A stretch of 64,000 bases of DNA from a virus: IMG/VR virus record IMGVR_UViG_3300017681_000001, positions 1 through 64,000 of that record, one strand, 5' to 3'. Positions 1 to 48,596 of this stretch are shown here, in pieces; positions within the stretch are counted from its first letter, which is position 1; each line of letters opens with the position of its first letter. Position numbers and translations under genes: made by a program. The notes under the pieces are model-generated. The model saw only the letters and a list, made by a program, of their open reading frames with translations. It did no database searches and was not told where the DNA came from.

Positions 1-233
1 GAGAAGCCGCACCGCATCTGGACGCGGGACGGAATCTTGAAGGCGTGGTCCGAGATCGCTGCGCCGGTCTCGACCGGGTGGTCGGTGATGGCGAGGTCGT
101 CGGTATGCACCTCGTCGATCACCACATCGGGGATGATCGTCGAGATGGACCGGAGGGGCGACGAGATTAGCGCGTAGGGCGCGAGGGCGTCGCCGATCAG
201 GCCGGCGGCGGCCCCGAGAAGTCCGGCTGCCAT
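1..233 (-). CDS. Distal tail / baseplate-hub-like protein, N-terminal part (runs off the window)
   Basis: ATG at 233 (cat 231-233) opens a minus frame reading MAAGLLGAAAGLIGDALAPYALISSPLRSISTIIPDVVIDEVHTDDLAITDHPVETGAAISDHAFKIPSRVQMRCGF to position 1. It is absent from the ORF track because it is truncated. The call rests on position after the tape measure and the ITDHPVE.G..ISDH pattern. Confidence 0.45.
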   Translation of the reverse strand, partial: MAAGLLGAAAGLIGDALAPYALISSPLRSISTIIPDVVIDEVHTDDLAITDHPVETGAAISDHAFKIPSRVQMRCGF

Positions 234-1090
234 GGTTCGTTTCTCCACGCACTCCACAGCATGCGGAGGAGGCGTTTTTCCACGTAGCGCTGTGCCCGGT
301 TGTGGGCGTGCAGCTTCGTCTCAACGCGTTCGGCCTCGTAGATTTTGCGCGCGTCGTAGGCCGCCTTGAGCGGCCCACCGGCTTTCACGATGCAAGCCCC
401 AATGTTCCAGACGACCGAACGGCGAGCCGGGCTGTAGCCGTGGTCCAGGGCCGCCATGCCACCGATCTTCCGCTGTCGACCGTCGGGCATGACGGCGAGG
501 CCCATCCGCTTCCACAACTTCGCCGGGTTGGCATAGCTGCCGAGGTCACCTGCCTCGCCCACGATGGCCGCGAGGCTGAGAAGCCCCACGCCGCGCATGC
601 CTTCGACCCAGGATGCGACGGGCAGCGCCTTCGCCAGTTTGATCAGGCGCTTCTCGACTGCCTTGCGGTGGGTCTCAATTGCCTTGCGCGCCTCGTCGAG
701 AGGGAAGATCGCGGCCAGCGCGATCTCTGCCATCTCGTGCGCCCCTTTGCCGAGCGCGGCCTTGTACATCCGGTCCGCCTCTTTCTTGTCGCCGCCTTCA
801 GCGAGGCGCCGGCATAGCGCCTTTGCCTGCAGGGTCAGAGACTTCTCTGCGCGGTGCCATGCCTGCCGGCGGCGCCACTGCTCACGGATTTCGGCAATGG
901 TGTCGGCGAGATCGACGCGCCTTGTATGGGGGACGCTGCCTCGATGGTCGATCTCGCCTTCGGCATTGCTGCCGATCTCTGAAAGGGGTGCGGCGGGCGG
1001 CGCCGATAGACTGGGTTCCACAACATGCTTGGCCGCCCGGCCGCGCCGGGACACACCCGGCATCTCGGGATTCTCAGCTCTCAAGGCCAC
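197..1090 (-). CDS. IS110-family transposase C-terminal (Transposase_20/HhH-like) domain-only protein
   Basis: 297-aa ORF. The segment MRGVGLLSLAAIVGEAGDLGSYANPAKLWKRMGLAVMPDGRQRK...GYSPARRSVVW matches the ipGiG..tA..l.aeigd...F.s...l..y.GL.P pattern of IS110/IS116/IS902 C-termini. The N-terminal half is coiled-coil-like, with no DEDD/RuvC-like motif. Its start overlaps the upstream gene by 17 nt. Confidence 0.55.
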   Translation of the reverse strand: MALRAENPEMPGVSRRGRAAKHVVEPSLSAPPAAPLSEIGSNAEGEIDHRGSVPHTRRVDLADTIAEIREQWRRRQAWHRAEKSLTLQAKALCRRLAEGGDKKEADRMYKAALGKGAHEMAEIALAAIFPLDEARKAIETHRKAVEKRLIKLAKALPVASWVEGMRGVGLLSLAAIVGEAGDLGSYANPAKLWKRMGLAVMPDGRQRKIGGMAALDHGYSPARRSVVWNIGACIVKAGGPLKAAYDARKIYEAERVETKLHAHNRAQRYVEKRLLRMLWSAWRNEPWQPDFSGPPPA

Positions 1091-1598
1091 GAGCTGCCTC
1101 CTGCAGCTCGCGCAGGCGCCTGTCGGACAGGACGTCCGCCGCAGTCTTGTTGCCCGGCACTGACTGAGCGACGAGGCGCAACCAGCGCGCCTTCACGCCC
1201 ATATCCTTGCTCTGGGTCTCGTAGAACGTCGCGGCCTCGCCGATCTCCTCGCGGGTCGCCTCGCCCAGCTTCTTGCCGCCTGGGAGCGGGAACATCAGGA
1301 GCGTGCCGGTCGCGAGCTGGACGACACGATGGGCGCCCGTCACGCGGCTCGCTACCAGCTTTTCGGCCGGGGGCGACCACACCTTACGGCGCTCAACGCG
1401 GCACTGCATCGTCACAGCGGTGTAGCAGGCATTGGCGAGAAGCGGATCGGTGAGGTCATCGCGCAGGCGGCGATCCTGTCGGACCTTCGCCTCCATTGCG
1501 CGGGTCGCCTCGCGGACATCGCCTCCTGCGGCGTCCAGGGCCGCACGGGCGGCTTCGGCTACGAGATCACGGTCCTTGGGCTTTGCGCTTGCTGCCAT
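1074..1598 (-). CDS. Hypothetical protein, co-operonic with the IS110-C-like gene
   Basis: ORF 1074-1643. The ATG at 1598 is preceded by GGAGG (minus strand gtggaggccattATG). The stop overlaps the next gene's start. No recognisable motif. Confidence 0.55.
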   Translation of the reverse strand: MAASAKPKDRDLVAEAARAALDAAGGDVREATRAMEAKVRQDRRLRDDLTDPLLANACYTAVTMQCRVERRKVWSPPAEKLVASRVTGAHRVVQLATGTLLMFPLPGGKKLGEATREEIGEAATFYETQSKDMGVKARWLRLVAQSVPGNKTAADVLSDRRLRELQEAARGLES

Positions 1599-1895
1599 AA
1601 TGGCCTCCACGGCGCCGGCCCGCCAGGGCCTGAAGCGCGTCACAGGTGGTCGAGGTGCGACCGCCGGCGCCGTGAAGCACGGAAACTCGGGATCGCGCTT
1701 GAGCCGCCCTGGCGGGGCGGATTGGTGTGCGGACGACGACAGGTCAGGTGTGGGGAACGGCGTTCCAGTGGTCGTCGCCCGCTCCCGGCCCCGAGGCGGG
1801 CCCGGATCTCTGAATGTCTACAAACTGAACGATTCACCCTTCCCAAATCCTAAGATCACAGGATCAAGGGACAAATGGCCCGATACTCCGCGGTG

Positions 1896-2354
1896 TCAGA
1901 CCGGCCCGACGTTGGGGCGCCCACTACCGACGGCCATCACCGCAGCAATGACCGCCTCGCGCAGTCGAGGCCGATCCTCGAGGCGGGCGGTGATCCGATC
2001 CCGCTCCGCGAAGTCCTCACGCGAGCCCGTCACGGGCTGACCGCGCCACAAGGCTCCATCCGATCCGACCGTGAACCAGATACCCACCGCCATCGCGTCC
2101 CGCAGGTACTCCTCGGCAACGAAGCGGAGATCGGGACCGTTCGCGCGGGCGGCCGGGACCCCGACGACATCACCGGCTAGAGCCGCGTAGGCCGTCGCCG
2201 CTATGCCGACGCTCGGGATGGCAGCAAGAGCGGAGAGAACCGCCCGGCGGGTCTGTGTCTCGTGATTTTCGTCCGACGAAAATTCGTTCGAAACGATCGC
2301 GCGTTTGCAATCGCGCAAATCGCTCGCAAATTTGGTAGAACCAAAAGCAGCCAT
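1896..2354 (-). CDS. Hypothetical protein with a twin-arginine-like signal (QTRRAVLSALAAIPSVGIAATAYA)
   Basis: ORF 1896-2369. The ATG at 2354 has GGAGG 8 nt upstream. An RR motif is followed by a hydrophobic h-region and AxA. Confidence 0.5.
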   Translation of the reverse strand: MAAFGSTKFASDLRDCKRAIVSNEFSSDENHETQTRRAVLSALAAIPSVGIAATAYAALAGDVVGVPAARANGPDLRFVAEEYLRDAMAVGIWFTVGSDGALWRGQPVTGSREDFAERDRITARLEDRPRLREAVIAAVMAVGSGRPNVGPV

Positions 2355-2388
2355 TCCGCGCACCTCCATGCGTTGGCTTGGTCAGGGT

Positions 2389-2437
2389 CCGCAGGGAAAT
2401 CTCACCTTCCCTGCGGCCCGTATTGTTGTTATACGGG
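2389..2437. promoter_or_regulatory. Two adjacent perfect hairpins / inverted repeats in a divergent intergenic region
   Basis: CCGCAGGGAA(2389-2398)-8 nt-TTCCCTGCGG(2407-2416), then CCCGTAT(2417-2423)-7 nt-ATACGGG(2431-2437), ending 5 nt before the RHH gene ATG. Confidence 0.5.
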
Positions 2438-2441
2438 TAGC

Positions 2442-2678
2442 ATGTTTATCATGTCAACGGCTGTAGAACAGAAAAGCAAGGGGCGTCCGCCCGGCAGCGC
2501 GTTCGCGGCCCCCTTCCCTATGCGGTTCACTGCCGAGCAGATGGCGGCCATCGACGCTTGGCGGCGGACCCAGGATGACCCGCCCTCGCGGACGGAAGCG
2601 GTACGCTTCATCCTGTCCGACTGGCTCACAGGCCAGGGCCTCTTGCCTAACCGTGACGATCCTGAGGGGGCAAACTGA
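2442..2678 (+). CDS. Ribbon-helix-helix (CopG/Arc-like) DNA-binding protein
   Basis: Internal ATG of ORF 2262-2678. Reads MFIMSTAVEQKSKGRPPGSAFAAPFPMRFTAEQMAAIDAWRR...SRTEAVRFILSDWL, a typical beta-strand plus two-helix RHH layout. Confidence 0.6.
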   Translation: MFIMSTAVEQKSKGRPPGSAFAAPFPMRFTAEQMAAIDAWRRTQDDPPSRTEAVRFILSDWLTGQGLLPNRDDPEGAN

Positions 2679-2962
2679 TGAGGCAAGTTTGGCACATTGT
2701 CGCGTCCGCATTACCTTCCTCAGTGAAGCGATTCGCCGCCCCGTTGAGTCGACCCCAGGGGACTCTACCGATGACCGATCAGAAAAAGGTCTCTCGGCCG
2801 GGCGCTCCCGAACCCGAGCGTCCTCTCATCACGCCCGAAGAGCTTTCCGAAGCACTGAGAAACAACCTTGAGCGAGCAGATGACATCAGGCGCGACGCAG
2901 GCGAACGAAGAAGCCGACTTCGAGGAGCTCTCCGGGGCCCCAAAAGAAAATTCAGTCTATGA
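2678..2962 (+). CDS. Possible small basic protein (doubtful)
   Basis: TGATG overlap with the RHH stop suggests translational coupling. However, its last 95 nt overlap the 335-aa gene, whose frame has the higher GC3 there (my count about 68% versus about 43%). Confidence 0.2.
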   Translation: MRQVWHIVASALPSSVKRFAAPLSRPQGTLPMTDQKKVSRPGAPEPERPLITPEELSEALRNNLERADDIRRDAGERRSRLRGALRGPKRKFSL

Positions 2963-3875
2963 CTTTCTATATCAAGATGTGCGGCGTGTTGGGTCTTTTC
3001 TTGCTCAATTCGAGGAGTACGGAGTACGGCAGGCGGTAAAGGCAACAGAAAGTGTTGGCCAGACCTCAACCCTTAAGGGAGCGGCGATGGGTACGCTTGG
3101 TCTTCCTACCGTAATGGGTGGGTCGGCTTCGGTGGACTCAACCGTTGCCGATGAAACAAAGGACCTCGCTGAACATACGTTCGATCCGCTTTGGGCCAAC
3201 GCCCGCCGCCTGCTGGACTATATTGAGTCCGGAGATCATCTTGAGACAGATCTTTGGGAGGCAACGATTGGGAGTTTCGTTGAAATAAAAGGCTCTATAT
3301 CTATTGTGGATTTGCACTATGTGCAGAGTATTCTGAAGAACGCAAATCTGAGGCGCACTTTCGTCGAACAGTTTGCGAAATCAAAGGGGCTCGGAAAAAA
3401 TTCTCAAAGCTTAAAAGATTTCAACAATAACTTCGATCTTATAACGAGCCTTCCCCACGGAATACAGCTAACGGTTTACGACCATTCAGATGACGAGAGT
3501 CTTGTCCAGGCGTGGTCTACAATTTCCCATGAATCTCTAACGGCAACTGCGGCGGACCTTATGCTGAAGCATGGTGTCGTGCTTCGCGGTCACAGCTGGA
3601 GGGTAATAGGTATTCTTGATGCTCTACCCGATTTTCGAATTCCTTCGGCAGAAGATCCGGAACCGAAAACGCTTGATGAAATCGCAGTCGACATGATACC
3701 TAACGACTTCGTAAAAATAGCAGCAAATCTTGCCGCCGTGGCCCGTGATTTGATTGGCAGGCCGCGCACAATGTTTGGCGTCACCCCGATACTTATCTTC
3801 CGCGAGGTAAAGAAGGGGAATCGTTCCCCTGCAGGCGCTGCAGATGCGGACCTTTCTACTCAGCAGCCCGGCTGA
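2868..3875 (+). CDS. Low-GC orphan 335-aa cytoplasmic protein, function unknown (moron / candidate defence effector)
   Basis: ORF with TTG at 2868 or ATG at 2880. GC falls to about 40-45% in lines 3241-3360 versus about 70% in flanks. N-terminus reads VYDFLYQDVRRVGSFLAQFEEYG, followed by a Gly/Ser/Thr-rich segment. No catalytic motif recognised. Confidence 0.75.
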   Translation: MSEQMTSGATQANEEADFEELSGAPKENSVYDFLYQDVRRVGSFLAQFEEYGVRQAVKATESVGQTSTLKGAAMGTLGLPTVMGGSASVDSTVADETKDLAEHTFDPLWANARRLLDYIESGDHLETDLWEATIGSFVEIKGSISIVDLHYVQSILKNANLRRTFVEQFAKSKGLGKNSQSLKDFNNNFDLITSLPHGIQLTVYDHSDDESLVQAWSTISHESLTATAADLMLKHGVVLRGHSWRVIGILDALPDFRIPSAEDPEPKTLDEIAVDMIPNDFVKIAANLAAVARDLIGRPRTMFGVTPILIFREVKKGNRSPAGAADADLSTQQPG

Positions 3876-3908
3876 CTTCTAATGCACGCTAAGTCGCCCC
3901 GCCTCGAC

Positions 3909-3926
3909 AGCCGCCACCCGGCGGCT
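3909..3926 (+). terminator. Weak hairpin after the 335-aa gene
   Basis: AGCCGCC-ACCC-GGCGGCT followed by ATCTT. The stem is 7 bp and the T-tract is poor. Confidence 0.3.
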
Positions 3927-3973
3927 ATCTTGGTGGGATGCGTTAAAGAAACGCGCCGACCACCGAGGCTTCG

Positions 3974-4252
3974 TTGGCAAAGCTGATACTTGGGTTCTTC
4001 GGCGGATTGAGCATCCTGACCGGGATCATCATCATTGTGAACGCGGTGGTCACGGGCCCTGCGGAGATGGCTGCGGTGGCCTTTTATGCCGGGTGCGCAC
4101 TGCTGCTCGCGGGCGCACCTCTCCTTGGTTTCGCGCGAGTGATCGTACTTCTTGAGCGGATAGAGCGAAATACGGCGCCGACACTCGCCAAGCCCGCGCC
4201 GCAAACGCTTGAGCAAATGTTGGTTGCCGCCCGCAGCGAGCCGATTCGGTAA
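3974..4252 (+). CDS. Small two-TM membrane protein
   Basis: TTG start with GAGG 6 nt upstream. Two hydrophobic helices are present (LILGFFGGLSILTGIIIIVNAVV and AAVAFYAGCALLLAGAPLLGFARVIVLL). Confidence 0.6.
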   Translation: MAKLILGFFGGLSILTGIIIIVNAVVTGPAEMAAVAFYAGCALLLAGAPLLGFARVIVLLERIERNTAPTLAKPAPQTLEQMLVAARSEPIR

Positions 4253-4294
4253 AGTCGTCTCGACAGACGCGCGGGCTCGCCTATCTTGCGATCC

Positions 4295-4645
4295 ATGCGC
4301 GCTGTCATTCTTGCCGTTGCCCTCACCGTTCCGACGGTCCTACACGCTGGCGACAGCGATCAGGATAGCCCGAGCGCGGGATGGTGGATCATCGCAGGCT
4401 CGTTCGCCAACGACGGGGCGGCGCGAAATGATGCTCTGATCCGCCGAAACTCCGAGGCGGCAAGGCGGTGCGGCCTCACGACCTTCAACGACTTCTCGTT
4501 CAAGTTCCGCGGCCTCAAGCCGGGGTACGACGTCGTCGTGATCGGCCCCTACCCCGAAAGGTCGTCGGCTCGCCGCTACTTGGCCCGCGTCAAGCCGTGC
4601 GTCCCAGGTGCCTACCTCAAAGAGGCAGAGCACCTAGGGGAGTGA
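4295..4645 (+). CDS. Secreted SPOR-like (peptidoglycan-binding-like) protein
   Basis: MRAVILAVALTVPTVLHA|GD is a signal peptide. The mature part, WWIIAGSF....AARNDA....GYDVVVIGPY.ERSSARRYLARVK, fits the SPOR beta-alpha-beta pattern. Its stop abuts the tape-measure stop (tga/tca at 4643-4648). Confidence 0.55.
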   Translation: MRAVILAVALTVPTVLHAGDSDQDSPSAGWWIIAGSFANDGAARNDALIRRNSEAARRCGLTTFNDFSFKFRGLKPGYDVVVIGPYPERSSARRYLARVKPCVPGAYLKEAEHLGE

Positions 4646-7540
4646 TCAGGCCACATTGCCCTGTAGGTTTCGAAGCAGGTCGGCATGGACGCGGGTCTGC
4701 GTCTTGCCCACCTCGGCGCCCACGGCCTTCGGATCCGACGCTCCGCTGATGTGGTAGGTGTTCGACTGCGGGGCCGTAATGGTCGTGCTCCGGTTCGCAT
4801 TCGTGACGGACTGAGACCCCAGCGGCGCGCTTTCCGGCATGACGACCTTCGGTGCGTTCTGGAGGGCCTTGCCAAGGCCGTTGTCGAACCGCTGTAGCGC
4901 CCCCTCGATTTTCGGGATGGCCTCACGGTGCTTCTCAATGGCCTCCAGGGACTTCGCGTTGAGGCCGAAGGGCATTGGGGCCGGCTTGTTCTCTGGGGTT
5001 GGATCCGGACCCGCCTTGTTCTTCCAGGGCTGCGCACCAGCCCATTCGAAGTGCATCGGATCGCGGGATCGTTCGCTCCAGTCGCCGCCCCAGCTGAGCC
5101 CCCATTTGGCCGCCATCTCCGACACGTTCTTCGGCATGTCGGTGATTGAGGTCTTGTAGGGATTCTTACTCGGGTTGATGTCGATGGCGTTGCCGTAGGC
5201 GTGCTGCGAGATGCGGCCGGACCCGTTGGCCTGCCCGCGGTTCGCGTAGCCGCCAAGCGAGTCGATATTGTAGCCGGATGCCTCGAGATCCTTGAGGAAG
5301 CCGGCGAAGGACTCCGCTGCCTCTTTATGAACCGTCGCTTTCTTGCCGGACGGCGTGGTGACGGTCGTCAGGTTCTCCCCGGGCGCCCCGTATTGCCCGT
5401 TCATGAGGTTGGCGAACCCCTTCGGACTGCCGGGCACTCGGCCCGAGGTAGTCGAGCCCTCCTGCCAGCCTTCGTGCCGCTTCATCACGTCCAGCATCGC
5501 GTTGCGCTGCTGAGGCGTCAGATCGCCGAGCGGCGTGTCGCCGGTGATGCCTGCGGCCTTCGCGATGGCGCCGATGTAGCCCTGCGTGTCGTTCTCGCTT
5601 GATGGCGCGTACTGCTGCATAGCCTGCGCCAGGGTCTTGCCCTTGTAGCGCGGGTCATCGAACAGCAGTCCCTCCTGCGCCTTCCGGCCGGTCGCTTCGT
5701 CGGGGAAGACGGCGAAGCCCTTGTCGTCGGCGTGGGTCGCGCCCATCGCCTTCGTGGCGTCGGAGAATTTCAGGTTGCCGGGGTTGTTGTTGCGCCAGGA
5801 GCGCGATCCGCCGGAGCGAGTGCCGCCCGACCCGTCAATGGTGCGGCTCCCATTCGGTGCATCCTTCCCGCCCAGCCACTTCGGCGCATACTTCTGCCAG
5901 AGGTTGCGGCTGTCCTTCCCGTCGGCCGCCCGGCCACCACCGGACTGCCCATAAACCCGATCCCCGAGGCCGGGATCCAGCGTCCGCAACGCACGCTCGC
6001 CGATCCCCTGCCCCGCCTCGCCGGTCCCGAGGATGCCGTTCGCGTTGGCGACGCTGGCCAAACCCGCGACGCCGAGAAGTCCCAGCAGCCACGGCGGCAG
6101 GCGCAGCGCCCCGAACCCCGTGAGCAAGGTCATGATCTTGGCCAGCGGCGCCAGGACGTTGAGCGCCAGCACGGTCCCGAGCCCGATGAATGCGACCGTC
6201 AGCCCGTCCTGGCCCGTCAGCTTCTTCGCGACGGCGTCGAAGCCCTCCCAGATGTCCCGGAACGCCTTCAGGGCGGACGTGATGGCCGGTTCCCACTTCG
6301 CCCAGTCAATGAGCGTGTCGGTGCCGCCCTCCTTCCACTTCCGGAAGTCGTCGTAGAGCGCGAGGATGCCGGTGCCGAGCGCCAGGATAACGCCGAGCGG
6401 CCCAGCGCGCAGCAGCATGAGCGCCGCGCCCATGGCGCCGAGCTGGACGATGAAGCCCTTCGTCGCCGGGTCGAGCCGATCGAACGCGCCGAACAGGTCG
6501 GCCACGCGCCCGACGAGCCGCAGGATGGTCTCACCGATCCGGATGACGCCGTCGGCGATGCGATCGGAGTTCTTCAGGAGCCAGTCGGTGAACTTCGTGA
6601 CGCTGCCGCCGAACCGCTCGACCAGGGCGCCCTCGATGCGGGCGCCGATGATCTCCAGGCCGGTCTGCATCCGGCGCCAGACGTTCATGAACGCGGCGCT
6701 GTCCTTGGCGGCCCTCTCCGGGTTCAGCCGGGCTTTGTCGAGCATGTCGCGGTACTCGGCGACGTGCTTGGTGAACTCCCCGCTCTTGAGGGCGGTCAGG
6801 GTGCGCTCGTCAATGCCGAGGGCGTCGGCGTAGGCCTTCGCTTGGAAGCCGGGCATCTTGGCGAGGACGGAGCCGAGATCCTGCACCACGTCAACCGTGT
6901 CGCGGATCTTGCCGTTGGCCTCCGTGGCGACGCCGAGCCCGTTGAGCATCGAGGCGTAGCCGGGCGAGGACCGCATGTTCTTCGCCAGCGCCTCGAGGCT
7001 GGCATTCGCCTCTCCGGCCGACGAGCCCATCTGGCCCGCCGCGTACCCGAAAGCGCGCAGGTTCGCCGCCGACGACTTCGTCCGCTGGCTGGAGTAGTAG
7101 ACCTGCTCCATGTTGCCGGCGATCTGGACGAGCGCCGTACCGATGCGGGTGGCCGCGTAGGCAGCGGCCGCGGCCATCGCCAGGGTCGCGGTCACGAAGG
7201 CCGTGCTGCGCCCATGGCTGGCCGTGGCAGCGTCCTTGTCGGCGCGCTCGCGGTCCTTGCTCCGGGCGATGGTCTCCTGGGTGTGCTTGGCGTCGGTCTC
7301 GGCGACGCGCTTGGTCTCGGCGATAAGCTGCGCCGCGCCGCGCGTGCGGACACCGGCCTCGCGCCCCGCCTGGAGGATACGGCGAGCGGATCCGACCCCC
7401 TGGGCGTCCGTGACCCGCTTGTCGGAGCCGACGATAGCCCTCTCGACGCGCGCGGCCGATGAGACGGCCTTGGCCTCGGACCCACCGTCGACCCGGTAGC
7501 CGACGGAGACGAGGAATTCGCGCAGCACGTCACCGGCCAT
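4646..7540 (-). CDS. Tail tape measure protein with C-terminal peptidase M15 (VanY-like) cell-wall hydrolase domain
   Basis: 964 aa. It has a central hydrophobic/Gly-rich region and an NNPGNLKF...YAPSSENDTQGY motif. The C-terminal SQHAYGNAIDINP...DPMHFEW matches the SxHxxGxAxD...DxxHFE zinc-peptidase signature. It follows the sheath, tube and chaperone genes. Confidence 0.85.
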   Translation of the reverse strand: MAGDVLREFLVSVGYRVDGGSEAKAVSSAARVERAIVGSDKRVTDAQGVGSARRILQAGREAGVRTRGAAQLIAETKRVAETDAKHTQETIARSKDRERADKDAATASHGRSTAFVTATLAMAAAAAYAATRIGTALVQIAGNMEQVYYSSQRTKSSAANLRAFGYAAGQMGSSAGEANASLEALAKNMRSSPGYASMLNGLGVATEANGKIRDTVDVVQDLGSVLAKMPGFQAKAYADALGIDERTLTALKSGEFTKHVAEYRDMLDKARLNPERAAKDSAAFMNVWRRMQTGLEIIGARIEGALVERFGGSVTKFTDWLLKNSDRIADGVIRIGETILRLVGRVADLFGAFDRLDPATKGFIVQLGAMGAALMLLRAGPLGVILALGTGILALYDDFRKWKEGGTDTLIDWAKWEPAITSALKAFRDIWEGFDAVAKKLTGQDGLTVAFIGLGTVLALNVLAPLAKIMTLLTGFGALRLPPWLLGLLGVAGLASVANANGILGTGEAGQGIGERALRTLDPGLGDRVYGQSGGGRAADGKDSRNLWQKYAPKWLGGKDAPNGSRTIDGSGGTRSGGSRSWRNNNPGNLKFSDATKAMGATHADDKGFAVFPDEATGRKAQEGLLFDDPRYKGKTLAQAMQQYAPSSENDTQGYIGAIAKAAGITGDTPLGDLTPQQRNAMLDVMKRHEGWQEGSTTSGRVPGSPKGFANLMNGQYGAPGENLTTVTTPSGKKATVHKEAAESFAGFLKDLEASGYNIDSLGGYANRGQANGSGRISQHAYGNAIDINPSKNPYKTSITDMPKNVSEMAAKWGLSWGGDWSERSRDPMHFEWAGAQPWKNKAGPDPTPENKPAPMPFGLNAKSLEAIEKHREAIPKIEGALQRFDNGLGKALQNAPKVVMPESAPLGSQSVTNANRSTTITAPQSNTYHISGASDPKAVGAEVGKTQTRVHADLLRNLQGNVA

Positions 7541-23377: not shown

Positions 23378-23656
23378 TCAGGCTTCGGAGGCCTGAGCTT
23401 CGCGGATGAGCGCCGCCTGGTCGCGCAGCTGCTCAAGGGCGTCGGAGGCCAGGGCAACGGCCCGGGCCGCCGCGTCGAGCGCCGCAGGGTTCATCCCCGC
23501 GACGACGGCATAGGCCTCGGCGGAGACCTCGTAGGTGGTCCAGCGCCAGCCGCAGGCGTTGCACTTCCGACGGCGACGGGTACCCTCTGCGGCCGGACGG
23601 CTGTCGAGAATACCAACGTCGGCGGATCGGCATGTGGGTTGAGGGCAGAGGGTCAT
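23378..23656 (-). CDS. Zinc-ribbon protein (NrdR-like N-terminus)
   Basis: CPQPTC....[17 protein letters not shown]: two CxxC pairs, as in the NrdR zinc ribbon. Confidence 0.5.
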
Positions 23657-25362
23657 GCGGATGCGCCCTGGGCAAGATACCGCTCGGCCAACAACTTGAT
23701 GCGGCTTTCGTCGCTGTATGTCTGGACGACCCCGGCCATCGGGTCCGTGATGCCTCGAGCCTGCGAGCCCTTCACGCCCAAGATGTTCATGATGACGGGG
23801 TCCGACCCCTCTTCGGCGTGCAGATAGATCGCCGTGACCTCGTCGGCGGTCTGGCCCGGCCGGTCGAGGCGACCGATGACCTGCTCGTGAACCTTGGGGG
23901 ACCAGTCCAACTCGCCGATGACCACGGTCGCCGCCCGGGCCTGCAAACCATCCACACCCTCGCCAGACCGGAGCGAGATGATCATCAGCGGGGTGTCGCC
24001 GTCGATGAATCGGGCCTTCTCGCGCTCCTTCGCCGCCGGGCTTTCGGATCCGGTGTACATGGCGGGCCTGTAGGCCGCGAGTTCGCGGTTCCAGATGTCG
24101 TAGACCTCGCGATGCCAGCCTGCGAGGAGCACTGGAATCCCCTGGTCGAGGAGCAACCGAACGTAGGCCGCCACGTGCCGCGCCTTGGCGACGCCGGTGA
24201 CCTGCCGGGCGAGGGCGTCGAGTTCGCGCGCGGCTTGGCCCCGCTCCATGAACGAGGCGGTGGTGACCTTGATCGCCAGGGCACGGGCAAGGTCCGCCGC
24301 ATCGGCCGCCACGGCGGCATCGTACGGCACCTCGTGCACGATCGTGTTCACCGGCTTGCCAGACCGAACCGTGCGCATTAGCAGGTTCTGATCCCGCAGG
24401 TAGGTGCCAAGGGCGTCCGGGTCCTTAACCAGCCACTTGCCGTTGCCGCGCGGTGTGCACCATTCCCGATGGAAGTCTGCCAAATCCCCGAGCGTACCCG
24501 GTGCGATCAACTCGACGATCGGGAAAATCTCGTCGCCGTAGTTGTAGACCGGGGTGGCGGACAGGCCGATGCGCAGCCCAGTAGCTTGGTTCGAGAACAC
24601 CGTCGCGGCCGCGCCCTTGGCCGTTGACGGCCCTTTGCGCATGGCGTGGATCTCGTCGAGGATCACCGATCGAAACATCCCGGTCGCGGCGATGTCGACC
24701 CACCCGGCCACGTTCGAGTAGCGGAACAGGTAGAGGTCTGCCGGGGGCAGGTCGTACGGCTTGGTGCCGGCGATCACGTGGACCCGCAGGTGGGTGAACC
24801 GCGCGGCGTAGCGTTGCCATTGTGCGGTGAGGTGCGGGGGGACGATCACGGCGGCCGGCAGGAATTCGGGCAACGCCACCGCGCCGAGGGCGGTGACCGT
24901 CTTGCCCAGACCAACGTCGTCGCCGATCAGGGCGCGGCGCAGGCGGCGGGTGATCTCGATCCCCTGCGCCTGGTACCCGTACGGGGCCAACCCGTCCCGA
25001 AATCCGGTGAATGGGGGCGGGGTCCAGTCGGGCAGCAGGATTTCCTCGACCGCCGCGATGTCCCGCTCGAACAGCGTCTTGCCGGCGATCATCGCCATGC
25101 GGTCTGCCGCCGCCATCGCCATAGGATAGCGCCCGGTGAACCATTGCAGGTCCGCGCAGGTGTCCGGTGCGTGGGCGAACGTGAACGTGCCGGTCTGCGC
25201 CTTGGGCAGTCGGGGGAACATGCTCTTGAGGCGCAGGGCTACGTGCGGCGGGACGTCGGCCATCACCCACCTCGCCGCGGCGGCATCGAAGGCGAGTCGT
25301 CCGTAGGTACGCCGCGGCGCGGCATCGTCGTGGGATAGGGCGAGTGCAGCGCTCACAGCCAT
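23653..25362 (-). CDS. SNF2-family helicase
   Basis: ATG at 25362. Motifs GDDVGLGKT (I), ILDEIHAMR (II) and SLRSGEGVDGLQ (V-like). Confidence 0.8.
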   Translation of the reverse strand: MAVSAALALSHDDAAPRRTYGRLAFDAAAARWVMADVPPHVALRLKSMFPRLPKAQTGTFTFAHAPDTCADLQWFTGRYPMAMAAADRMAMIAGKTLFERDIAAVEEILLPDWTPPPFTGFRDGLAPYGYQAQGIEITRRLRRALIGDDVGLGKTVTALGAVALPEFLPAAVIVPPHLTAQWQRYAARFTHLRVHVIAGTKPYDLPPADLYLFRYSNVAGWVDIAATGMFRSVILDEIHAMRKGPSTAKGAAATVFSNQATGLRIGLSATPVYNYGDEIFPIVELIAPGTLGDLADFHREWCTPRGNGKWLVKDPDALGTYLRDQNLLMRTVRSGKPVNTIVHEVPYDAAVAADAADLARALAIKVTTASFMERGQAARELDALARQVTGVAKARHVAAYVRLLLDQGIPVLLAGWHREVYDIWNRELAAYRPAMYTGSESPAAKEREKARFIDGDTPLMIISLRSGEGVDGLQARAATVVIGELDWSPKVHEQVIGRLDRPGQTADEVTAIYLHAEEGSDPVIMNILGVKGSQARGITDPMAGVVQTYSDESRIKLLAERYLAQGASA

Positions 25363-25718
25363 GCCTTTCCGAGCGAGAGGACGAAGGTGGGCTTGTCGAT
25401 GCTGGGCAGCGTCGTACTGACCGACGTCGCCAGGATCAGGGCGGCGACCTCGGGGCGCTCGCAGTACCGGACGCACTGGCGGTGGATCGCGCGCTTGCCG
25501 CCGGCGAGCTTCACCTCAATGGCGATGCGGCCGCACATCACGTCGACGATGCCGGAGTCGCCGAGGCGAACTTCACGCTCGGTCGGTATCCCGGCCGCGA
25601 TCAGCGCCTCCGCGATCTCGGCCTGGGTGGTCTTCTCGTTCGTGAGCGAAAAGCGGCGGCCATACAGGGCCGCGACTACCTCGCGCATCTCCATCTGCAC
25701 GCTTGGCGTCGCGGTCAT
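25353..25718 (-). CDS. PD-(D/E)xK (VRR-NUC-like) nuclease
   Basis: 121 aa. GIVDVMCGRIAIEVK fits D...(D/E)xK. It lies adjacent to the SNF2 helicase, as is common in phages. Confidence 0.45.
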   Translation of the reverse strand: MTATPSVQMEMREVVAALYGRRFSLTNEKTTQAEIAEALIAAGIPTEREVRLGDSGIVDVMCGRIAIEVKLAGGKRAIHRQCVRYCERPEVAALILATSVSTTLPSIDKPTFVLSLGKAWL

Positions 25719-27976: not shown

Positions 27977-29347
27977 CTACTCCGCAGCCATGAGGGAAGA
28001 CGAGGCGCCGATGGCCTCGACGGTCTCAATCCGCTGACCAATCCACCGCATGGCGTTCACGGCCATGGAGTTACCGAGTGCCTTGTAGCGGGGGCCGTCC
28101 GCCATCATCCCGCGCCCATGGGGGACGAGGGTGTAGCCATCGGGGAAGCCCTGCAAGCGCTCGCATTCGAGGGGCGTGAGGCGGCGGACGGCCCACATGC
28201 TGGGCTCACCGTTGTGGCCGATCGTGGCGATGGCTTCGGCCTGTGGCGACGAGGAACTCAGTGAGCCCGACCGATCCCAGGTGACGTCGGGATCCTGGCG
28301 CGAGTTGAAGGCAATGGCGGGCGGATGGGCGCCTGCCGCGAGGGGATGGCACGGGTCGCCATCCTGCGGGTTGCAGCGGTTCGCGACGCTCGTGATCTGG
28401 GTCGTGTCGAAGGCGATGAACGTCTCGCTCTCGAAGTCCATCCGCCCGCACGACCCACCATGCGCGTTGACGGCGGTGGCGACGCTAATGGGACCGCGCG
28501 TGTCATTGCCGCCGAAGGCGACCGGAACGATGGGCGTGCCCCGGCCCGTGCCGTCTTCGCTGGCGTCAAATCCCTCGCCGCGCAGGCTGTGAGCGACGAG
28601 CAAGCCTTCGCGGCTCTCGTGGTCGCCGTACGGGTTGCTGGCATTGATGGCGGGCGCATGCGGCGCCGCAATCAGTCCGCCGTCGCACTCGAAGTCTGTG
28701 CCGAGCCCGCCACCGCCGCGAGTGCGCGCGCTAAGGGTAGGGGCAGGACGCGCCCCCGCGTCTCGGCGCGGCGCAGGATCCCCGCGCAGGCTCGCGCGCT
28801 CAAGAAGTACCGCTGCGGGACGGCGCCAGTCTCCAAGATATCCGACAACGAACACACGCCGGCGTCGCTGAGGGACAGCCCGTCCAAAGCCGTCCACTCG
28901 GACGTACTGAGCGTCAAGCACTCGGTAGGCGAACCCATACCCGAGTTCGACCATGCCCCCGAGAATGGCACCAAAGTCCCGTCCGCCTCCTGACGACAGG
29001 ACGCCGGGGACGTTCTCCCAGACCAGCCATCGGGGGCGCAGGCGCTGAGCCAGCCTAAGATACTGGAGGGCCAGGTTGCCGCGGTCGTCTGCCAAGCCGC
29101 CTCGGGGCCCGGCGACCGAGAACGACTGGCAGGGGGTTCCTCCCACGAGAAGGTCGATTGTACCGTACTGGCCTTCGCCGATCGTCGTGAAGTCGCCATG
29201 CAGGGGCACCTCGGGATAGTGGTGGGCGAGCACAGCGCGCGGCGCGGCGTCGATCTCGGAGAAGAACTGCGGGCGCCAGCCGAAGGGGTGCCACGCGACG
29301 GTGGCGGCCTCGATGCCAGAGCAGACGGAGCCGTAGCGGAGGGTCAT
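27977..29347 (-). CDS. DNA cytosine-5 methyltransferase
   Basis: Motif I GSVCSGIE, motif IV GGTPCQSFSVAG, motif VI ENVPGVL, motif X LGNSMAVNAM. The ATG at 29347 has GGAG upstream; an alternative GTG lies at 29356. Confidence 0.85.
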   Translation of the reverse strand: MTLRYGSVCSGIEAATVAWHPFGWRPQFFSEIDAAPRAVLAHHYPEVPLHGDFTTIGEGQYGTIDLLVGGTPCQSFSVAGPRGGLADDRGNLALQYLRLAQRLRPRWLVWENVPGVLSSGGGRDFGAILGGMVELGYGFAYRVLDAQYVRVDGFGRAVPQRRRRVFVVGYLGDWRRPAAVLLERASLRGDPAPRRDAGARPAPTLSARTRGGGGLGTDFECDGGLIAAPHAPAINASNPYGDHESREGLLVAHSLRGEGFDASEDGTGRGTPIVPVAFGGNDTRGPISVATAVNAHGGSCGRMDFESETFIAFDTTQITSVANRCNPQDGDPCHPLAAGAHPPAIAFNSRQDPDVTWDRSGSLSSSSPQAEAIATIGHNGEPSMWAVRRLTPLECERLQGFPDGYTLVPHGRGMMADGPRYKALGNSMAVNAMRWIGQRIETVEAIGASSSLMAAE

Positions 29348-29352
29348 CGGGC

Positions 29353-29664
29353 TCACTCCGCAGCCATGAGGGGACTGAACAGATCGCGGCCAGCCGCAGG
29401 CGCCTTCGGGGCAGCCTTGGCGGCCGCAGCACGATCCCGCGCCTCACGGAGGCAATCCGCATCGCTGCAGGCGATGACGCCCCGCGAATGGCTGAAGTTG
29501 CCGAATCCGTTTCCGGCGTTCGCCGATCCGCAGATGTCGCAGTAGGTCTCAAGCGCAGCGCGGGCGGCGCGATCGGCCTCCAGACCTTCAGCGGTCAGGA
29601 CGCTCGGATCGAACCACATGCCGGCTGGGCCGGGCTTGGTGATGTCGTGGGGCTCGCGGGCCAT
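29353..29664 (-). CDS. Hypothetical Cys-rich protein
   Basis: 103-aa ORF with CDICGS...ACSDADC. Confidence 0.45.
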   Translation of the reverse strand: MAREPHDITKPGPAGMWFDPSVLTAEGLEADRAARAALETYCDICGSANAGNGFGNFSHSRGVIACSDADCLREARDRAAAAKAAPKAPAAGRDLFSPLMAAE

Positions 29665-47162: not shown

Positions 47163-48596
47163 ATGGGCGTGTCCCAAATCATTCCCCGCGACACCGTCAT
47201 GAGCATCGTGCGCAAGCGCAATGAGCGCCTGGACCTGTACGCCGAGGCTCACGCTTCGATTTCAGCCGCATCGGAGGCGCTTGCCCGCGCTTGGGACGCC
47301 CGGATGAGCCCGTCCGAACACGCCTTTAACTACGCGACGAAGCGCGAAGAGGCCGAGTTCTTGGGCGCTCTCAAAGTGCCGGACCGCGATGGCTACTTGA
47401 CCACAGCCCGCAAGATTACCGACATCGACGTGTGGTCCCGCATCGTGAAGATGACCGAGCTTGAGAAGCTCATGGACAAGACGGCCAAGGATCAGCTGCG
47501 CCAGGAGCTGGCCACCGATCCGCCGGAGGTCACGGAAGAGAACGTCCTGGCGACCGTCGAGAAGTTCGCAGGCGAGGCCGGCATGATCTTCCGACGCGGC
47601 ATCGCCACGATGTTCTCAAAGCTGGATCGGCGCTTCCGGTCTCATGATGGCTGGAAGGTCGGATCGCGCGTGGTGCTGACTCACGTCTTCGACACCTTCG
47701 GTTCGTGGTGCTACCGGGGCAATGAGCGCGACACGATCAGCGACATCGAGCGGGCGTTCTACGTCCTCGACGGCAAGCCCGTGCCGCCGTCCTATGCCGG
47801 CCTCGTTGAGGCGGTCGACGCGGCTCGCAAGGGCAACGGTCTCAGCCCCGTCGCCGCCTCCGTCGAAACCGAGTTCTTCCGCTGCCACACCTTCAAGAAC
47901 GGCAACGCCCATATCTGGTTCAAGCGGGACGACCTGCTGGAGCGGGTGAACAAGCTCCTCGGGGAGTATTACGCCAACCCGATCCCGGAAGAGCGCGAAG
48001 CTGACGAGCGGGACCAGACCTTCGCGGCGAAGACGATGCCGGCGAAGCGCGACGGGTTCTTCCCGACACCGCCGGAGGCCGCGGCCCGCCTCATCGAACA
48101 GGCGAGCCTCTATCGGCGCCAGGATGCTCCCATCCTTCGCGTGCTGGAGCCGAGCGCCGGGACGGGCAACCTCGCATCCTTGGCCGTCGCCAAAGGCGCC
48201 ACAGTAGACTGCATTGAGATCCAGCCGGGCCTTGCCGCGGGGCTGCGCCAGTCGGGGCGTTTCGCCAAGGTGCTCTGCGCCGATTTCCTCGGCATCCAGC
48301 CTGCGCCGACGCCGATCTATGACCGCGTGGTGATGAACCCGCCGTTCGATCGGGAGCGCGATATTGACCACGTCATGCACGCCCTGAAGTTCCTCAAGCC
48401 GGACGGCCGGCTCGTGGCGATCATGTCGGCCGGGACCGAGTTCCGGGAGACCAAGAAGGCCATCGCCTTCCGTGCCCTCATGTCCCGCCTCAAGGCCGAC
48501 TGGCGCGACCTGCCGCCGGGCTCGTTCGCAGCGTCGGGCACCTACTGCAACACCGTCATCCTGACCGTGAACATCAATGGCTGTGAGCCGTACTGA
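47163..48596 (+). CDS. DNA methyltransferase with N-terminal DUF4942-like domain
   Basis: Motif I LEPSAGTGNLA and motif IV VVMNPPFD in the C-terminal half. An alternative GTG at 47169 lies 6 nt after AGGAG. Confidence 0.75.
   Translation: MGVSQIIPRDTVMSIVRKRNERLDLYAEAHASISAASEALARAWDARMSPSEHAFNYATKREEAEFLGALKVPDRDGYLTTARKITDIDVWSRIVKMTELEKLMDKTAKDQLRQELATDPPEVTEENVLATVEKFAGEAGMIFRRGIATMFSKLDRRFRSHDGWKVGSRVVLTHVFDTFGSWCYRGNERDTISDIERAFYVLDGKPVPPSYAGLVEAVDAARKGNGLSPVAASVETEFFRCHTFKNGNAHIWFKRDDLLERVNKLLGEYYANPIPEEREADERDQTFAAKTMPAKRDGFFPTPPEAAARLIEQASLYRRQDAPILRVLEPSAGTGNLASLAVAKGATVDCIEIQPGLAAGLRQSGRFAKVLCADFLGIQPAPTPIYDRVVMNPPFDRERDIDHVMHALKFLKPDGRLVAIMSAGTEFRETKKAIAFRALMSRLKADWRDLPPGSFAASGTYCNTVILTVNINGCEPY

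What the first reader, a model, noticed from the sequence alone, without database searches (positions are those of the whole stretch)
2442..4645. Candidate undescribed system: RHH regulator + low-GC 335-aa orphan + 2-TM protein + secreted SPOR-like protein
Four co-oriented genes run opposite to the surrounding late genes. The 335-aa ORF is compositionally foreign: I counted 24/60 and 26/60 GC for 3241-3300 and 3301-3360, versus about 45/60 at 4681-4740. I could assign no catalytic motif to it (no P-loop, HNH, PD-ExK or HxH). Its N-terminus VYDFLYQDVRRVGSFLAQFEEYG is followed by a Gly/Ser/Thr-rich stretch (TLKGAAMGTLGLPTVMGGSASVDS). This resembles, from memory only, uncharacterised DUF proteins seen in defence islands; I cannot verify that. 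A cytosolic component plus a small membrane protein plus a periplasmic peptidoglycan-binding protein, under a small RHH, is the architecture expected for prophage-encoded abortive infection or superinfection exclusion.
Basis: partly seen in the sequence, partly recalled or inferred. Interest (0 to 1): 0.7.

Follow-up and report, generated by a model that had tools for sequence, protein, structure and literature searches.

The report
Overlapping small gene plus DolA-like gene
The proposed four-gene phage system is really a mobile two-gene cassette: a DUF6414 (Dodola DolA-family) gene plus a small overlapping partner gene that annotation usually misses. It sits in a variable cargo slot of a phage tail region, next to unrelated neighbour genes.

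Summary
The ORFs and the GC dip are real, but the four-gene system is not a unit.

- **The 335-aa "orphan".** It belongs to Pfam DUF6414, which a review reports as the DolA family of the Dodola anti-phage system. Its family has more than 1,300 clusters at 50% identity.
- **A missed fifth gene.** A 63-aa basic, single-helix ORF (2771-2962) overlaps the 5' end of the DUF6414 gene. It occurs once per locus in about 90% of roughly 70 homologous loci, from Alpha- and Gammaproteobacteria to a Clostridium phage. Its TGA always lies inside the [Y/F]-D codons of the SV[Y/F]DFLY motif.
- **What is foreign.** Only this pair is compositionally foreign (GC3 about 0.5, against 0.70-0.89 for the neighbours).
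- **How the pair travels.** It is cargo of IS1595-family insertion sequences in 15 of 53 loci. It also sits in lysogeny-type positions of temperate phages.
- **The neighbours.** The SPOR gene belongs to this phage lineage, has its own promoter, and is present in sister phages that lack the rest. The RHH and 2-TM genes recur only in one Methylobacterium relative.
- **Dodola.** No ClpB-like DolB gene and no PADLOC hit were found.

Most likely this is a toxin-antitoxin-like defence or addiction module. The biochemistry is unknown: the predicted fold has no match.

The parts
2386..2419 (.). Inverted repeat (13-nt arms, 92% complementary, 8-nt spacer) in the divergent intergenic region just upstream of the RHH-like gene. 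Candidate operator; inferred only.
   Evidence: I12; sequence
2442..2678 (+). 78-aa RHH-like protein (pI 5.2). Possible local regulator. Not a conserved partner of the family.
   Evidence: No Pfam, NCBIfam or PDB sequence hit. The only homologue among about 70 loci is in L055, directly upstream of sORF-DUF6414, with an SRSEAIRRLV motif and RHH_1 E 0.14. GC3 0.75.
2771..2962 (+). sORF, the newly recognised gene. 63 aa, pI 10.7, one long helix (residues 22-54) with basic tails. Preceded by an AGGGGA Shine-Dalgarno sequence. It overlaps the DUF6414 gene by 83 nt, and its TGA lies inside the TAT-GAC (Y-D) codons of SVYDFLY.
2880..3875 (+). DUF6414 (DolA-family) protein, 331 aa, pI 4.85, no TM segment. 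Alpha/beta fold with a disordered Gly/Ser/Thr-rich loop (residues 55-98). GC 0.51, GC3 0.49.
3904..3932 (+). Promoter-like element TCGACAG-N14-CTATCTTG, copy 1, upstream of the 2-TM gene. It carries a duplicated ATGCG that gives a 2-codon mini-ORF.
   Evidence: (D5)
3974..4252 (+). 92-aa protein with two TM segments, bracketed by the two promoter copies. Accessory gene; only a weak similarity in L055.
   Evidence: BLASTP to the L055 2-TM ORF gives 39% over 31 aa, E 3e-4; no other homologue in the loci
4260..4288 (+). Promoter-like element, copy 2. Conserved upstream of the SPOR gene in L006 and L007. The ATG is 7 nt downstream, so a leaderless mRNA is likely (inferred).
4295..4645 (+). 116-aa secreted SPOR-domain protein. 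Resident gene of this phage lineage. Convergent with the tape measure gene, with no gap between the two stop codons.

Best explanation
**What the unit is.** The functional unit is a two-gene mobile cassette, not four genes.
- The first gene is a small basic single-helix protein (sORF, 2771-2962).
- The second is a DUF6414 (DolA-family) acidic soluble protein (2880-3875).
- The DUF6414 start codon and ribosome-binding site are embedded inside the sORF coding sequence.
- The sORF stop codon is fixed inside the first conserved motif of DUF6414.

**How it got here.** The cassette is horizontally mobile. It rides as cargo in IS1595-family insertion sequences and as a cargo gene pair in temperate phages. 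In this phage it landed in a variable cargo slot between the tape measure gene and the Dit-like baseplate gene. Beside it lie a lineage-resident SPOR gene with its own promoter and a 2-TM gene. An RHH-like gene lies upstream and may regulate it locally.

**Inferred mechanism.** The pair works like a toxin-antitoxin or abortive-infection module.
- The nested, coupled translation keeps sORF in excess over the DUF6414 effector, and sORF holds the effector inactive.
- A disturbance of gene expression, or a phage trigger during superinfection, releases DUF6414. This arrests or kills the cell and so protects the lysogen population or stabilises the carrier element.

**Shown versus inferred.**
- Shown: gene content, the overlap architecture, purifying selection on sORF, mobility, and family assignment.
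- Inferred: the sORF-DUF6414 interaction, toxicity, the defence phenotype and RHH regulation.
For: **Family**
- Pfam DUF6414 and PHROG 9699 hit the protein.
- A review reports that the Dodola system consists of a DUF6414 protein and a ClpB-related protein. Dodola is experimentally validated.

**sORF is a real gene**
- It is found once per locus, at the same place, in about 50 of 55 genome loci and 17 of 18 viral loci.
- Nucleotide entropy is highest at its third codon position, both outside the overlap (1.45/1.33/1.81) and inside it (1.27/1.02/1.54).
- Its stop is TGA inside T[A/T]T-GA[C/T] in 48 of 48 loci. The neighbouring F and Y codons use T at the wobble position only 57% of the time.
- A start codon lies 21-22 codons upstream of the Y/F in most loci. 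An SD-like motif precedes the assigned start in 48 of 64 loci.

**The same overlap is already annotated in distant records**
- Acinetobacter, Moraxella and Clostridium phages and a Klebsiella prophage carry it annotated; in Bordetella phage IFTN2 the sORF is present but unannotated.

**Complementary charge and shape**
- pI is 10.7 for sORF against 4.85 for DUF6414. sORF is a single helix.

**Mobility**
- An IS1595 transposase lies directly upstream in 15 of 53 loci. Terminal inverted repeats (GGGACCTATATAC...) enclose transposase, sORF and DUF6414 in L024, L027 and L033.
- The DUF6414 gene is about 10-20 GC points below its flanks in most loci.
- No other neighbour is conserved.

**Lysogeny-type positions**
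- After an S24 repressor, after a repressor-like DNA-binding gene of the Clostridium phage HM T regulatory region, next to integrase, and in cargo islands between tail genes.

**Frequent decay**
- Split DUF6414 ORFs occur in L029, L042, L051, L052, L056 and the Klebsiella copy.
Against: - There is no experimental data on this subfamily.
- No PADLOC model hits this protein or eight relatives.
- No ClpB-like DolB partner is present, so the Dodola precedent transfers only at the level of the Pfam family.
- The AlphaFold model (pLDDT 79) has no significant Foldseek match in PDB or BFVD, and the profile has no PDB sequence match. No catalytic or pore mechanism can therefore be assigned.
- Many chromosomal copies sit next to ordinary metabolic genes such as carB and acyl-CoA dehydrogenase, not in defence islands. 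This fits IS insertion but gives no guilt by association.
- The sORF has no recognisable DNA-binding or antitoxin domain.
Confidence: 0.55

Rival explanations
1. **Extended multi-gene system.** RHH, sORF, DUF6414 and the 2-TM protein, with or without SPOR, act together. A membrane component executes or senses, under RHH control.
For: - In L055 (Methylobacterium thuringiense) a 2-TM ORF, an RHH homologue, sORF and DUF6414 are consecutive, and the first three genes are coupled: TAATG between 2-TM and RHH, and an 8-nt overlap between RHH and sORF.
- The two 2-TM proteins share a weak match that includes an RIER motif (E 3e-4).
- No + strand terminator was predicted between the window genes.
Against: - RHH and the 2-TM gene are absent from all other loci examined, about 70, including four other Methylobacterium loci.
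- Gene order differs between the window and L055.
- SPOR occurs without DUF6414 in L006 and L007, and no DUF6414 locus except the window carries it.
- The 2-TM and SPOR genes each have their own promoter-like element.
- GC3 is 0.70-0.79 for these genes, against 0.49-0.52 for the pair.
Confidence: 0.15
2. **Pure addiction (post-segregational killing) module.** The pair stabilises its carrier (IS, prophage) and has no role against phages.
For: - It travels as passenger genes inside IS1595-family elements and is scattered in ordinary chromosomal contexts.
- It has a TA-like small upstream gene with an overlap.
- Pseudogenisation is frequent.
Against: - A review reports the Pfam family as part of a validated anti-phage system.
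- Copies recur at classical superinfection-immunity positions, such as directly after cI-like repressors on the same strand.
- The two roles are not mutually exclusive.
Confidence: 0.2
3. **Programmed +1 frameshift.** sORF and DUF6414 are made as one fusion protein by a +1 shift at the conserved CT[T/A]-TGA-[C/T] site, which resembles the prfB CTT-TGA-C site.
For: - The sORF stop is invariably TGA, preceded in most loci by a Leu codon (CTT or CTA) and always at the same position.
- The 21-codon DUF6414 leader that it overlaps shows no protein-level constraint.
Against: - A start codon at -21/-22, preceded by an SD-like motif, is conserved in the DUF6414 frame (48 of 64 loci).
- No SD-like stimulator lies just upstream of the stop, as there is in prfB (sequences).
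- TGA is forced by the conserved Asp codon.
- The Clostridium homologue ends with TAA two codons earlier.
Confidence: 0.05
4. **Tail-associated phage function.** The pair acts in assembly or injection, because it lies next to tape measure genes.
For: It is adjacent to the tape measure or tail chaperone genes in the window, L001, Acinetobacter phage qsb1 and Moraxella Mcat13.
Against: - It is absent from sister phages L006 and L007.
- It is on the opposite strand to the tail genes in the window and in L001.
- It occurs in IS elements and in non-phage chromosomal sites.
- In other phages it lies in the immunity or integrase region.
Confidence: 0.03

Closest known systems
Dodola anti-phage system (DolA + DolB; Millman et al. 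2022, as cited in bioRxiv 10.1101/2024.10.26.620412, PMC11514479 and bioRxiv 10.1101/2024.10.22.618286)
   Same: One component belongs to the same Pfam family, DUF6414. Both are small cassettes carried on mobile DNA.
   Different: - No ClpB-like DolB gene is present here or in about 70 related loci.
- PADLOC v2 DolA/DolB models do not hit.
- The partner is instead a roughly 65-aa overlapping ORF.
- This subfamily is mainly proteobacterial and phage- or IS-borne.
- I could not check whether canonical Dodola loci also hide such an sORF.
Type II toxin-antitoxin and Abi pairs with overlapping genes (for example AbiE, or PD-T4-10 and Rst_gop_beta_cll, which mentions as overlapping-gene TA-like systems)
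   Same: A small upstream gene overlaps a larger downstream gene. The two products have opposite charge. The pair is mobile and decays often.
   Different: - The overlap is unusually long (67-112 nt; 83 nt in this window). The downstream start is nested inside the upstream gene, and the upstream stop is fixed in a conserved motif.
- There is no homology to any known toxin or antitoxin family.
- sORF has no DNA-binding domain.
Lambda RexAB-type prophage exclusion genes (own knowledge)
   Same: Some homologues occupy the same slot, directly after the cI-like repressor and on the same strand. This implies expression in lysogens.
   Different: There is no sequence or predicted structural similarity. 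DUF6414 and sORF have no TM segments. In this window the pair is in the tail region, not the immunity region.
IS1595-family insertion sequences with passenger genes (ISNwi1-type elements of ISfinder; Siguier et al. 2009; own knowledge, not checked here)
   Same: In L024, L027, L033 and L064, a DDE_Tnp_IS1595 transposase, sORF and DUF6414 form a unit of about 2.1 kb. In L024, L027 and L033, 23-27-nt terminal inverted repeats beginning GGGACCTATATAC bound it.
   Different: The window copy has no transposase and no such repeats. I could not verify that this cargo is the one recorded for ISNwi1-type elements.

Membership tests
Pfam PF19952 (DUF6414) | HMM score above the gathering threshold | tested here: met
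   54 bits against a cut-off of 25, E 2.8e-14, covering the N-terminal half. Eight relatives also match; five reach the cut-off (L058, P0022 and P0014 score 21-24 bits) and two match over the full model length.
Dodola system | DolA recognised by the defence-system HMMs (PADLOC-DB v2) | tested here: not met
   No PADLOC hit at E<=0.1 for the window protein, and no Dodola model hit at E<=1 for eight relatives.
Dodola system | Adjacent ClpB-like DolB gene | tested here: not met
   Window neighbours are the RHH, sORF, 2-TM and SPOR genes. ORF clustering of 57 loci found no conserved neighbour except sORF and the IS1595 transposase.
Dodola system | Anti-phage phenotype | not testable with these tools
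   Needs cloning and phage challenge.
Type II toxin-antitoxin module | Small gene immediately upstream of, and translationally linked to, a larger gene | tested here: met
   There is an 83-nt overlap here. Among relatives the commonest overlap is 67 nt, in both genome and viral loci.
Type II toxin-antitoxin module | Toxicity of the large protein, neutralised by binding of the small one | not testable with these tools
   Only indirect hints: opposite pI and frequent frameshifted DUF6414 copies.
Type II toxin-antitoxin module | Antitoxin with a recognisable DNA-binding fold (RHH, HTH, AbrB, Phd) | tested here: not met
   sORF has no significant Pfam or NCBIfam hit (none near a family cut-off), and the model is a single helix.
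IS1595-family transporter IS | DDE_Tnp_IS1595 transposase and terminal inverted repeats enclosing the cargo | tested here: not met
   Not met in the window: no transposase, and the repeat motif does not exceed chance. Met in relatives L024, L027 and L033.
SPOR domain (PF05036) | HMM score above the gathering threshold | tested here: met
   23.5 bits against 21, E 6.9e-5.
Ribbon-helix-helix (CopG/Arc/MetJ) | Match to an RHH profile or structure | tested here: inconclusive
   No Pfam, NCBIfam or PDB sequence hit for the window protein. The L055 homologue gives RHH_1 at E 0.14. The sequence pattern (beta strand, helix, SRxE-x-(I/V)R helix) fits by eye.

The most novel reading that the evidence does not exclude
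sORF plus DUF6414 is a self-contained, previously unrecognised two-gene immunity or abortive-infection system, distinct from Dodola.
- Its small partner has been systematically missed by gene callers because of a deeply conserved nested overlap.
- The system spreads as cargo of IS1595 insertion sequences and temperate phages. That would make simple insertion sequences vehicles of anti-phage defence.
- A further speculative layer: the Gly/Ser/Thr-rich, partly alternating loop of DUF6414 is a membrane-inserting hairpin, released when sORF is lost.
Probability: 0.3. Interest if true: 0.75.

Novelty: new variant of a known kind. Interest (0 to 1): 0.55.

Why it matters
**If the pair is a working module**
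- It adds a compact, DolB-independent branch to a defence-linked protein family whose mechanism is unknown.
- It supplies a missing component, the sORF. Anyone cloning "DUF6414 alone" from database coordinates would truncate or omit it.

**The conserved dual-coding arrangement**
- The start and ribosome-binding site of one gene lie inside the other, and a stop codon is locked into a conserved motif. This holds from Alphaproteobacteria to a Clostridium phage.
- It is a clean natural case for studying the expression logic of overlapping genes.

**Mobility**
- Carriage inside IS1595-family elements suggests that plain insertion sequences can move such modules.

**For genome annotation**
- Only 65 sORF proteins are on record, against more than 1,300 DUF6414 clusters.

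Tried and rejected
- **PADLOC on all window proteins and on relatives:** nothing relevant.
- **Structure and sequence searches for DUF6414:** Foldseek of the model against PDB and BFVD gave a best E of 0.1-0.3 and TM-scores of 0.2 or less. A profile search of PDB sequences found nothing. No fold or catalytic assignment is possible.
- **Pfam and NCBIfam on the sORF:** no family.
- **RHH:** no Pfam or PDB sequence support.
- **IS1595 terminal repeat in the window:** not above chance.
- **Promoter pattern:** the first search used the wrong spacer and missed both sites. It was corrected.
- **Tas/IS110-like ORF:** tandem-repeat and Rfam scans of 1-6000, looking for a guide array nearby, found nothing.
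- **Plasmid collection:** only one partial hit, which is in fact a chromosome-sized record carrying a prophage.
- **Literature:** a search for ISNwi1 and for IS1595 passenger genes gave nothing usable.
- **Rejected ideas:** a prfB-like frameshift as the main expression route, a tail-structural role, and a ClpB partner elsewhere in the locus.
Full report
**1. Observation**

Gene calls on the parent contig (L005; window coordinate = L005 coordinate minus 7121) agree:
- 78 aa at 2442-2678
- 331 aa at 2880-3875
- 92 aa at 3974-4252
- 116 aa at 4295-4645

All are on the + strand. They lie between the tape measure gene (4646-7540, - strand, Peptidase_M15_4 domain) and three - strand ORFs. Beyond those come a Dit-like gene and the baseplate genes of an E217/Pam3-type contractile-tail phage.

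The GC counts are exact: 24/60, 26/60 and 44/60. GC falls to 0.44 around 3150-3450, against 0.66 for the window. The 2-TM topology and the SPOR hit hold.

Three points fail:
- The protein is not an orphan.
- Its N-terminus is not VYDFLY, because the Val codon is GTC.
- A fifth co-oriented gene was missed.

**2. The 335-aa protein**

- It hits Pfam DUF6414 (54 bits, cut-off 25) and PHROG 9699 (E 2e-41). It hits nothing in PADLOC or NCBIfam.
- The closest relatives are 52-69% identical proteins of Methylobacterium and Methylorubrum.
- A profile of 39 homologues finds 1,318 clusters at 50% identity at E<=1e-3. The best 150 listed are stand-alone proteins of about 280-350 aa.
- A review states that the Dodola system consists of a DUF6414 protein and a ClpB-related protein. 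Dodola is experimentally active against Bacillus and streptococcal phages, and its mechanism is unknown.
- The AlphaFold model (pLDDT 79, pTM 0.72) is an alpha/beta domain. It has an N-terminal strand-helix (the SVYDFLY...AQF motif) and a disordered, poorly conserved Gly/Ser/Thr-rich loop at residues 55-98.
- Foldseek finds no significant match in PDB or BFVD. The profile finds no PDB sequence relative.
- There is no TM segment.

**3. The missed partner**

I clustered six-frame ORFs of 57 loci that encode homologues. Only one conserved neighbour emerged: an ORF of about 70 aa just upstream of, and overlapping, the DUF6414 gene. In the window it is the 2678-2962 ORF. Its likely start is ATG 2771, behind an AGGGGA Shine-Dalgarno sequence.

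Its distribution:
- An HMM of this sORF hits once per locus, always at this position, in about 50 of 55 genome loci. Several of the misses are at contig ends.
- It hits in 17 of 18 IMG/VR loci.
- It hits only once in the whole 64-kb window.

It is a real coding sequence:
- Nucleotide entropy by codon position in its frame is 1.45/1.33/1.81 upstream of the overlap and 1.27/1.02/1.54 inside it.
- Its frame therefore dominates even where the two genes overlap. The 21-codon DUF6414 leader evolves freely.

The junction is fixed:
- In 48 of 48 loci the sORF stop is a TGA formed by the last base of a TAT or TTT codon plus GA of the next Asp codon, within SV[Y/F]DFLY.
- The neighbouring Phe and Tyr codons of the same motif use T only 57% of the time.

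DUF6414 starts on its own:
- Its start codon lies 21-22 codons upstream of that Y/F in most loci, and 26-36 codons upstream in the Methylobacterium clade and several other alphaproteobacterial loci. An SD-like purine motif lies 6-16 nt before the assigned start in 48 of 64 loci.
- This argues for independent, nested initiation rather than frameshifting.

Other properties:
- The same overlap is already annotated in Acinetobacter phage vB_AbaS_qsb1, Moraxella phage Mcat13, a Klebsiella prophage and Clostridium phage HM T. It is present but unannotated in Bordetella phage IFTN2.
- sORF C-termini run ...RGAR(x)3-4RF(R/S)L* throughout the Proteobacteria.
- sORF has no Pfam or NCBIfam family.
- Only 65 proteins match it in a collection of 5.8 billion, so gene callers usually miss it.
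- It is basic (pI 10.7, against 4.85 for DUF6414) and is predicted to be one long helix with basic tails.

**4. Mobility and context**

- The pair is compositionally foreign almost everywhere. The DUF6414 gene is about 10-20 GC points below its flanks in most loci.
- In the window only sORF (GC3 0.52) and DUF6414 (0.49) deviate. RHH (0.75), 2-TM (0.70), SPOR (0.79) and the tape measure gene (0.89) do not.
- In 15 of 53 loci an IS1595-family transposase ends at the sORF start (DDE_Tnp_IS1595 plus zinc ribbon; NCBIfam transpos_IS1595, 203 bits).
- In L024, L027 and L033, terminal inverted repeats of 23-27 nt beginning GGGACCTATATAC enclose exactly the transposase, sORF and DUF6414, a unit of about 2.1 kb. 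The pair is therefore passenger cargo of an insertion sequence.
- The window copy has no transposase and no such repeats.

In phages the pair sits in these places:
- between the tail chaperone and tape measure genes (L001, Acinetobacter and Moraxella phages)
- next to integrase (Bordetella phage)
- directly after the repressor on the same strand (Klebsiella prophage, Clostridium HM T)
- often at the ends of predicted prophages

Chromosomal copies lie beside unrelated genes such as carB and acyl-CoA dehydrogenase. This fits IS insertion rather than operon membership. Several copies are frameshifted. No ClpB-like gene accompanies any of them.

**5. The neighbours in the window**

*SPOR gene.*
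- Its only database relatives (95% and 77% identity) are in two sister phages. There they sit at the same spot, convergent with the tape measure gene.
- Those phages carry different cargo (a GT61 glycosyltransferase, or a Cys-rich 144-aa ORF) and have no RHH, DUF6414 or 2-TM gene.
- The gap between the tape measure and Dit-like genes is therefore a variable cargo slot, and SPOR is its resident.

*Promoter-like elements.*
- A promoter-like element, TCGACAG-N14-CTATCTTG, precedes the SPOR gene with the ATG 7 nt downstream. It is conserved in the sister phages.
- An exact second copy, including the first ATGCG, precedes the 2-TM gene. The 2-TM gene is thus bracketed by a duplicated promoter.
- The element resembles the alphaproteobacterial housekeeping promoter consensus (own knowledge).

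*RHH-like gene.*
- It has no profile support. It has one homologue, in Methylobacterium thuringiense (L055).
- There a 2-TM ORF, RHH, sORF and DUF6414 are consecutive and the first three genes are coupled.
- The two 2-TM proteins are weakly similar (E 3e-4 over 31 aa).
- Four other Methylobacterium loci lack both genes. RHH and the 2-TM gene are therefore at most clade-specific accessories.

**6. Mechanism**

*Shown:*
- a two-gene, horizontally mobile cassette with nested translation signals
- purifying selection on the small gene
- membership of a Pfam family that a review links to a defence system
- positions typical of lysogen-expressed genes

*Inferred:*
- sORF binds and restrains DUF6414, in a toxin-antitoxin-like way.
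- Loss of sORF supply, or a phage cue, frees the effector.
- The outcome is growth arrest or death that protects the lysogen population or stabilises the carrier element.

The effector biochemistry is unknown. The Gly/Ser/Thr-rich loop with partly alternating hydrophobic residues could be a membrane-inserting hairpin, but nothing tests this.

**7. Verdict**

- The system boundaries and the "orphan" label were wrong.
- The interesting result is the conserved, largely unannotated overlapping partner of a DolA-family protein, and its carriage by IS1595 elements and temperate phages.
- This is a new variant of a known kind. Function is unproven.

Noticed in passing
window 197-1090 (- strand): A 297-aa ORF overlaps the start of the Dit-like gene. 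It scores 86 bits (cut-off 100) on NCBIfam 'TIGR-Tas system RNA-guided endonuclease'. It also matches the C-terminal half of IS110 transposases and PHROG 4285. No N-terminal DEDD domain hit was found. No tandem guide-like array or Rfam hit lies in 1-6000. It is absent from sister phages L006 and L007.
   Followed up: partly
window 1896-2369 (- strand): A 157-aa ORF carries a twin-arginine-like motif (TRRAVLSALAAIPSVGIAATAYA) and a hydrophobic stretch, so it may be a Tat-exported cargo protein. No family hit.
   Followed up: no
window 1-4645; L006 7504-8351; L007 1000-2768: The gap between the tape measure and Dit-like genes is a variable cargo slot in this phage lineage. The window has nine genes there (about 4.4 kb). 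L007 has a GT61 glycosyltransferase plus SPOR. L006 has a Cys-rich 144-aa ORF plus SPOR.
   Followed up: partly
window 3904-3943 and 4260-4299: The promoter-like element is duplicated together with the first bases of the SPOR ORF. This creates a 2-codon mini-ORF (ATG CGT TAA at 3938-3946) ahead of the 2-TM gene. In the SPOR copy the ATG is 7 nt after the -10 box, which suggests a leaderless mRNA.
   Followed up: partly
L065 8001-12587; L066 4118-8966: In two unrelated genomes the sORF-DUF6414 pair lies next to carB (carbamoyl-phosphate synthase large subunit). This may be an insertion hot spot or a coincidence.
   Followed up: no
L029, L042, L051, L052, L056; L062 4498-5333: The DUF6414 gene is split into two or more ORFs (frameshifted copies) in several loci, while the sORF is still detectable.
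   Followed up: partly
L006 3579-4370: A GIY-YIG/NUMOD3 homing-endonuclease-like gene sits among the baseplate genes of the sister phage. It is absent from the window phage.
   Followed up: no
L004 1-6441: The Methylobacterium sp. HMF5984 homologue lies near a TIR-domain protein, a Peptidase_U49 (Lit-like) protein, a transposase and a NUDIX gene. This is a defence-island-like stretch beside prophage tail genes.
   Followed up: no
window 23653-25476, 27977-29356, 47163-48596: Other phage cargo or replication genes: an SNF2-related helicase, a C-5 cytosine DNA methylase and a DUF4942 protein. The window has no tRNA genes.
   Followed up: no
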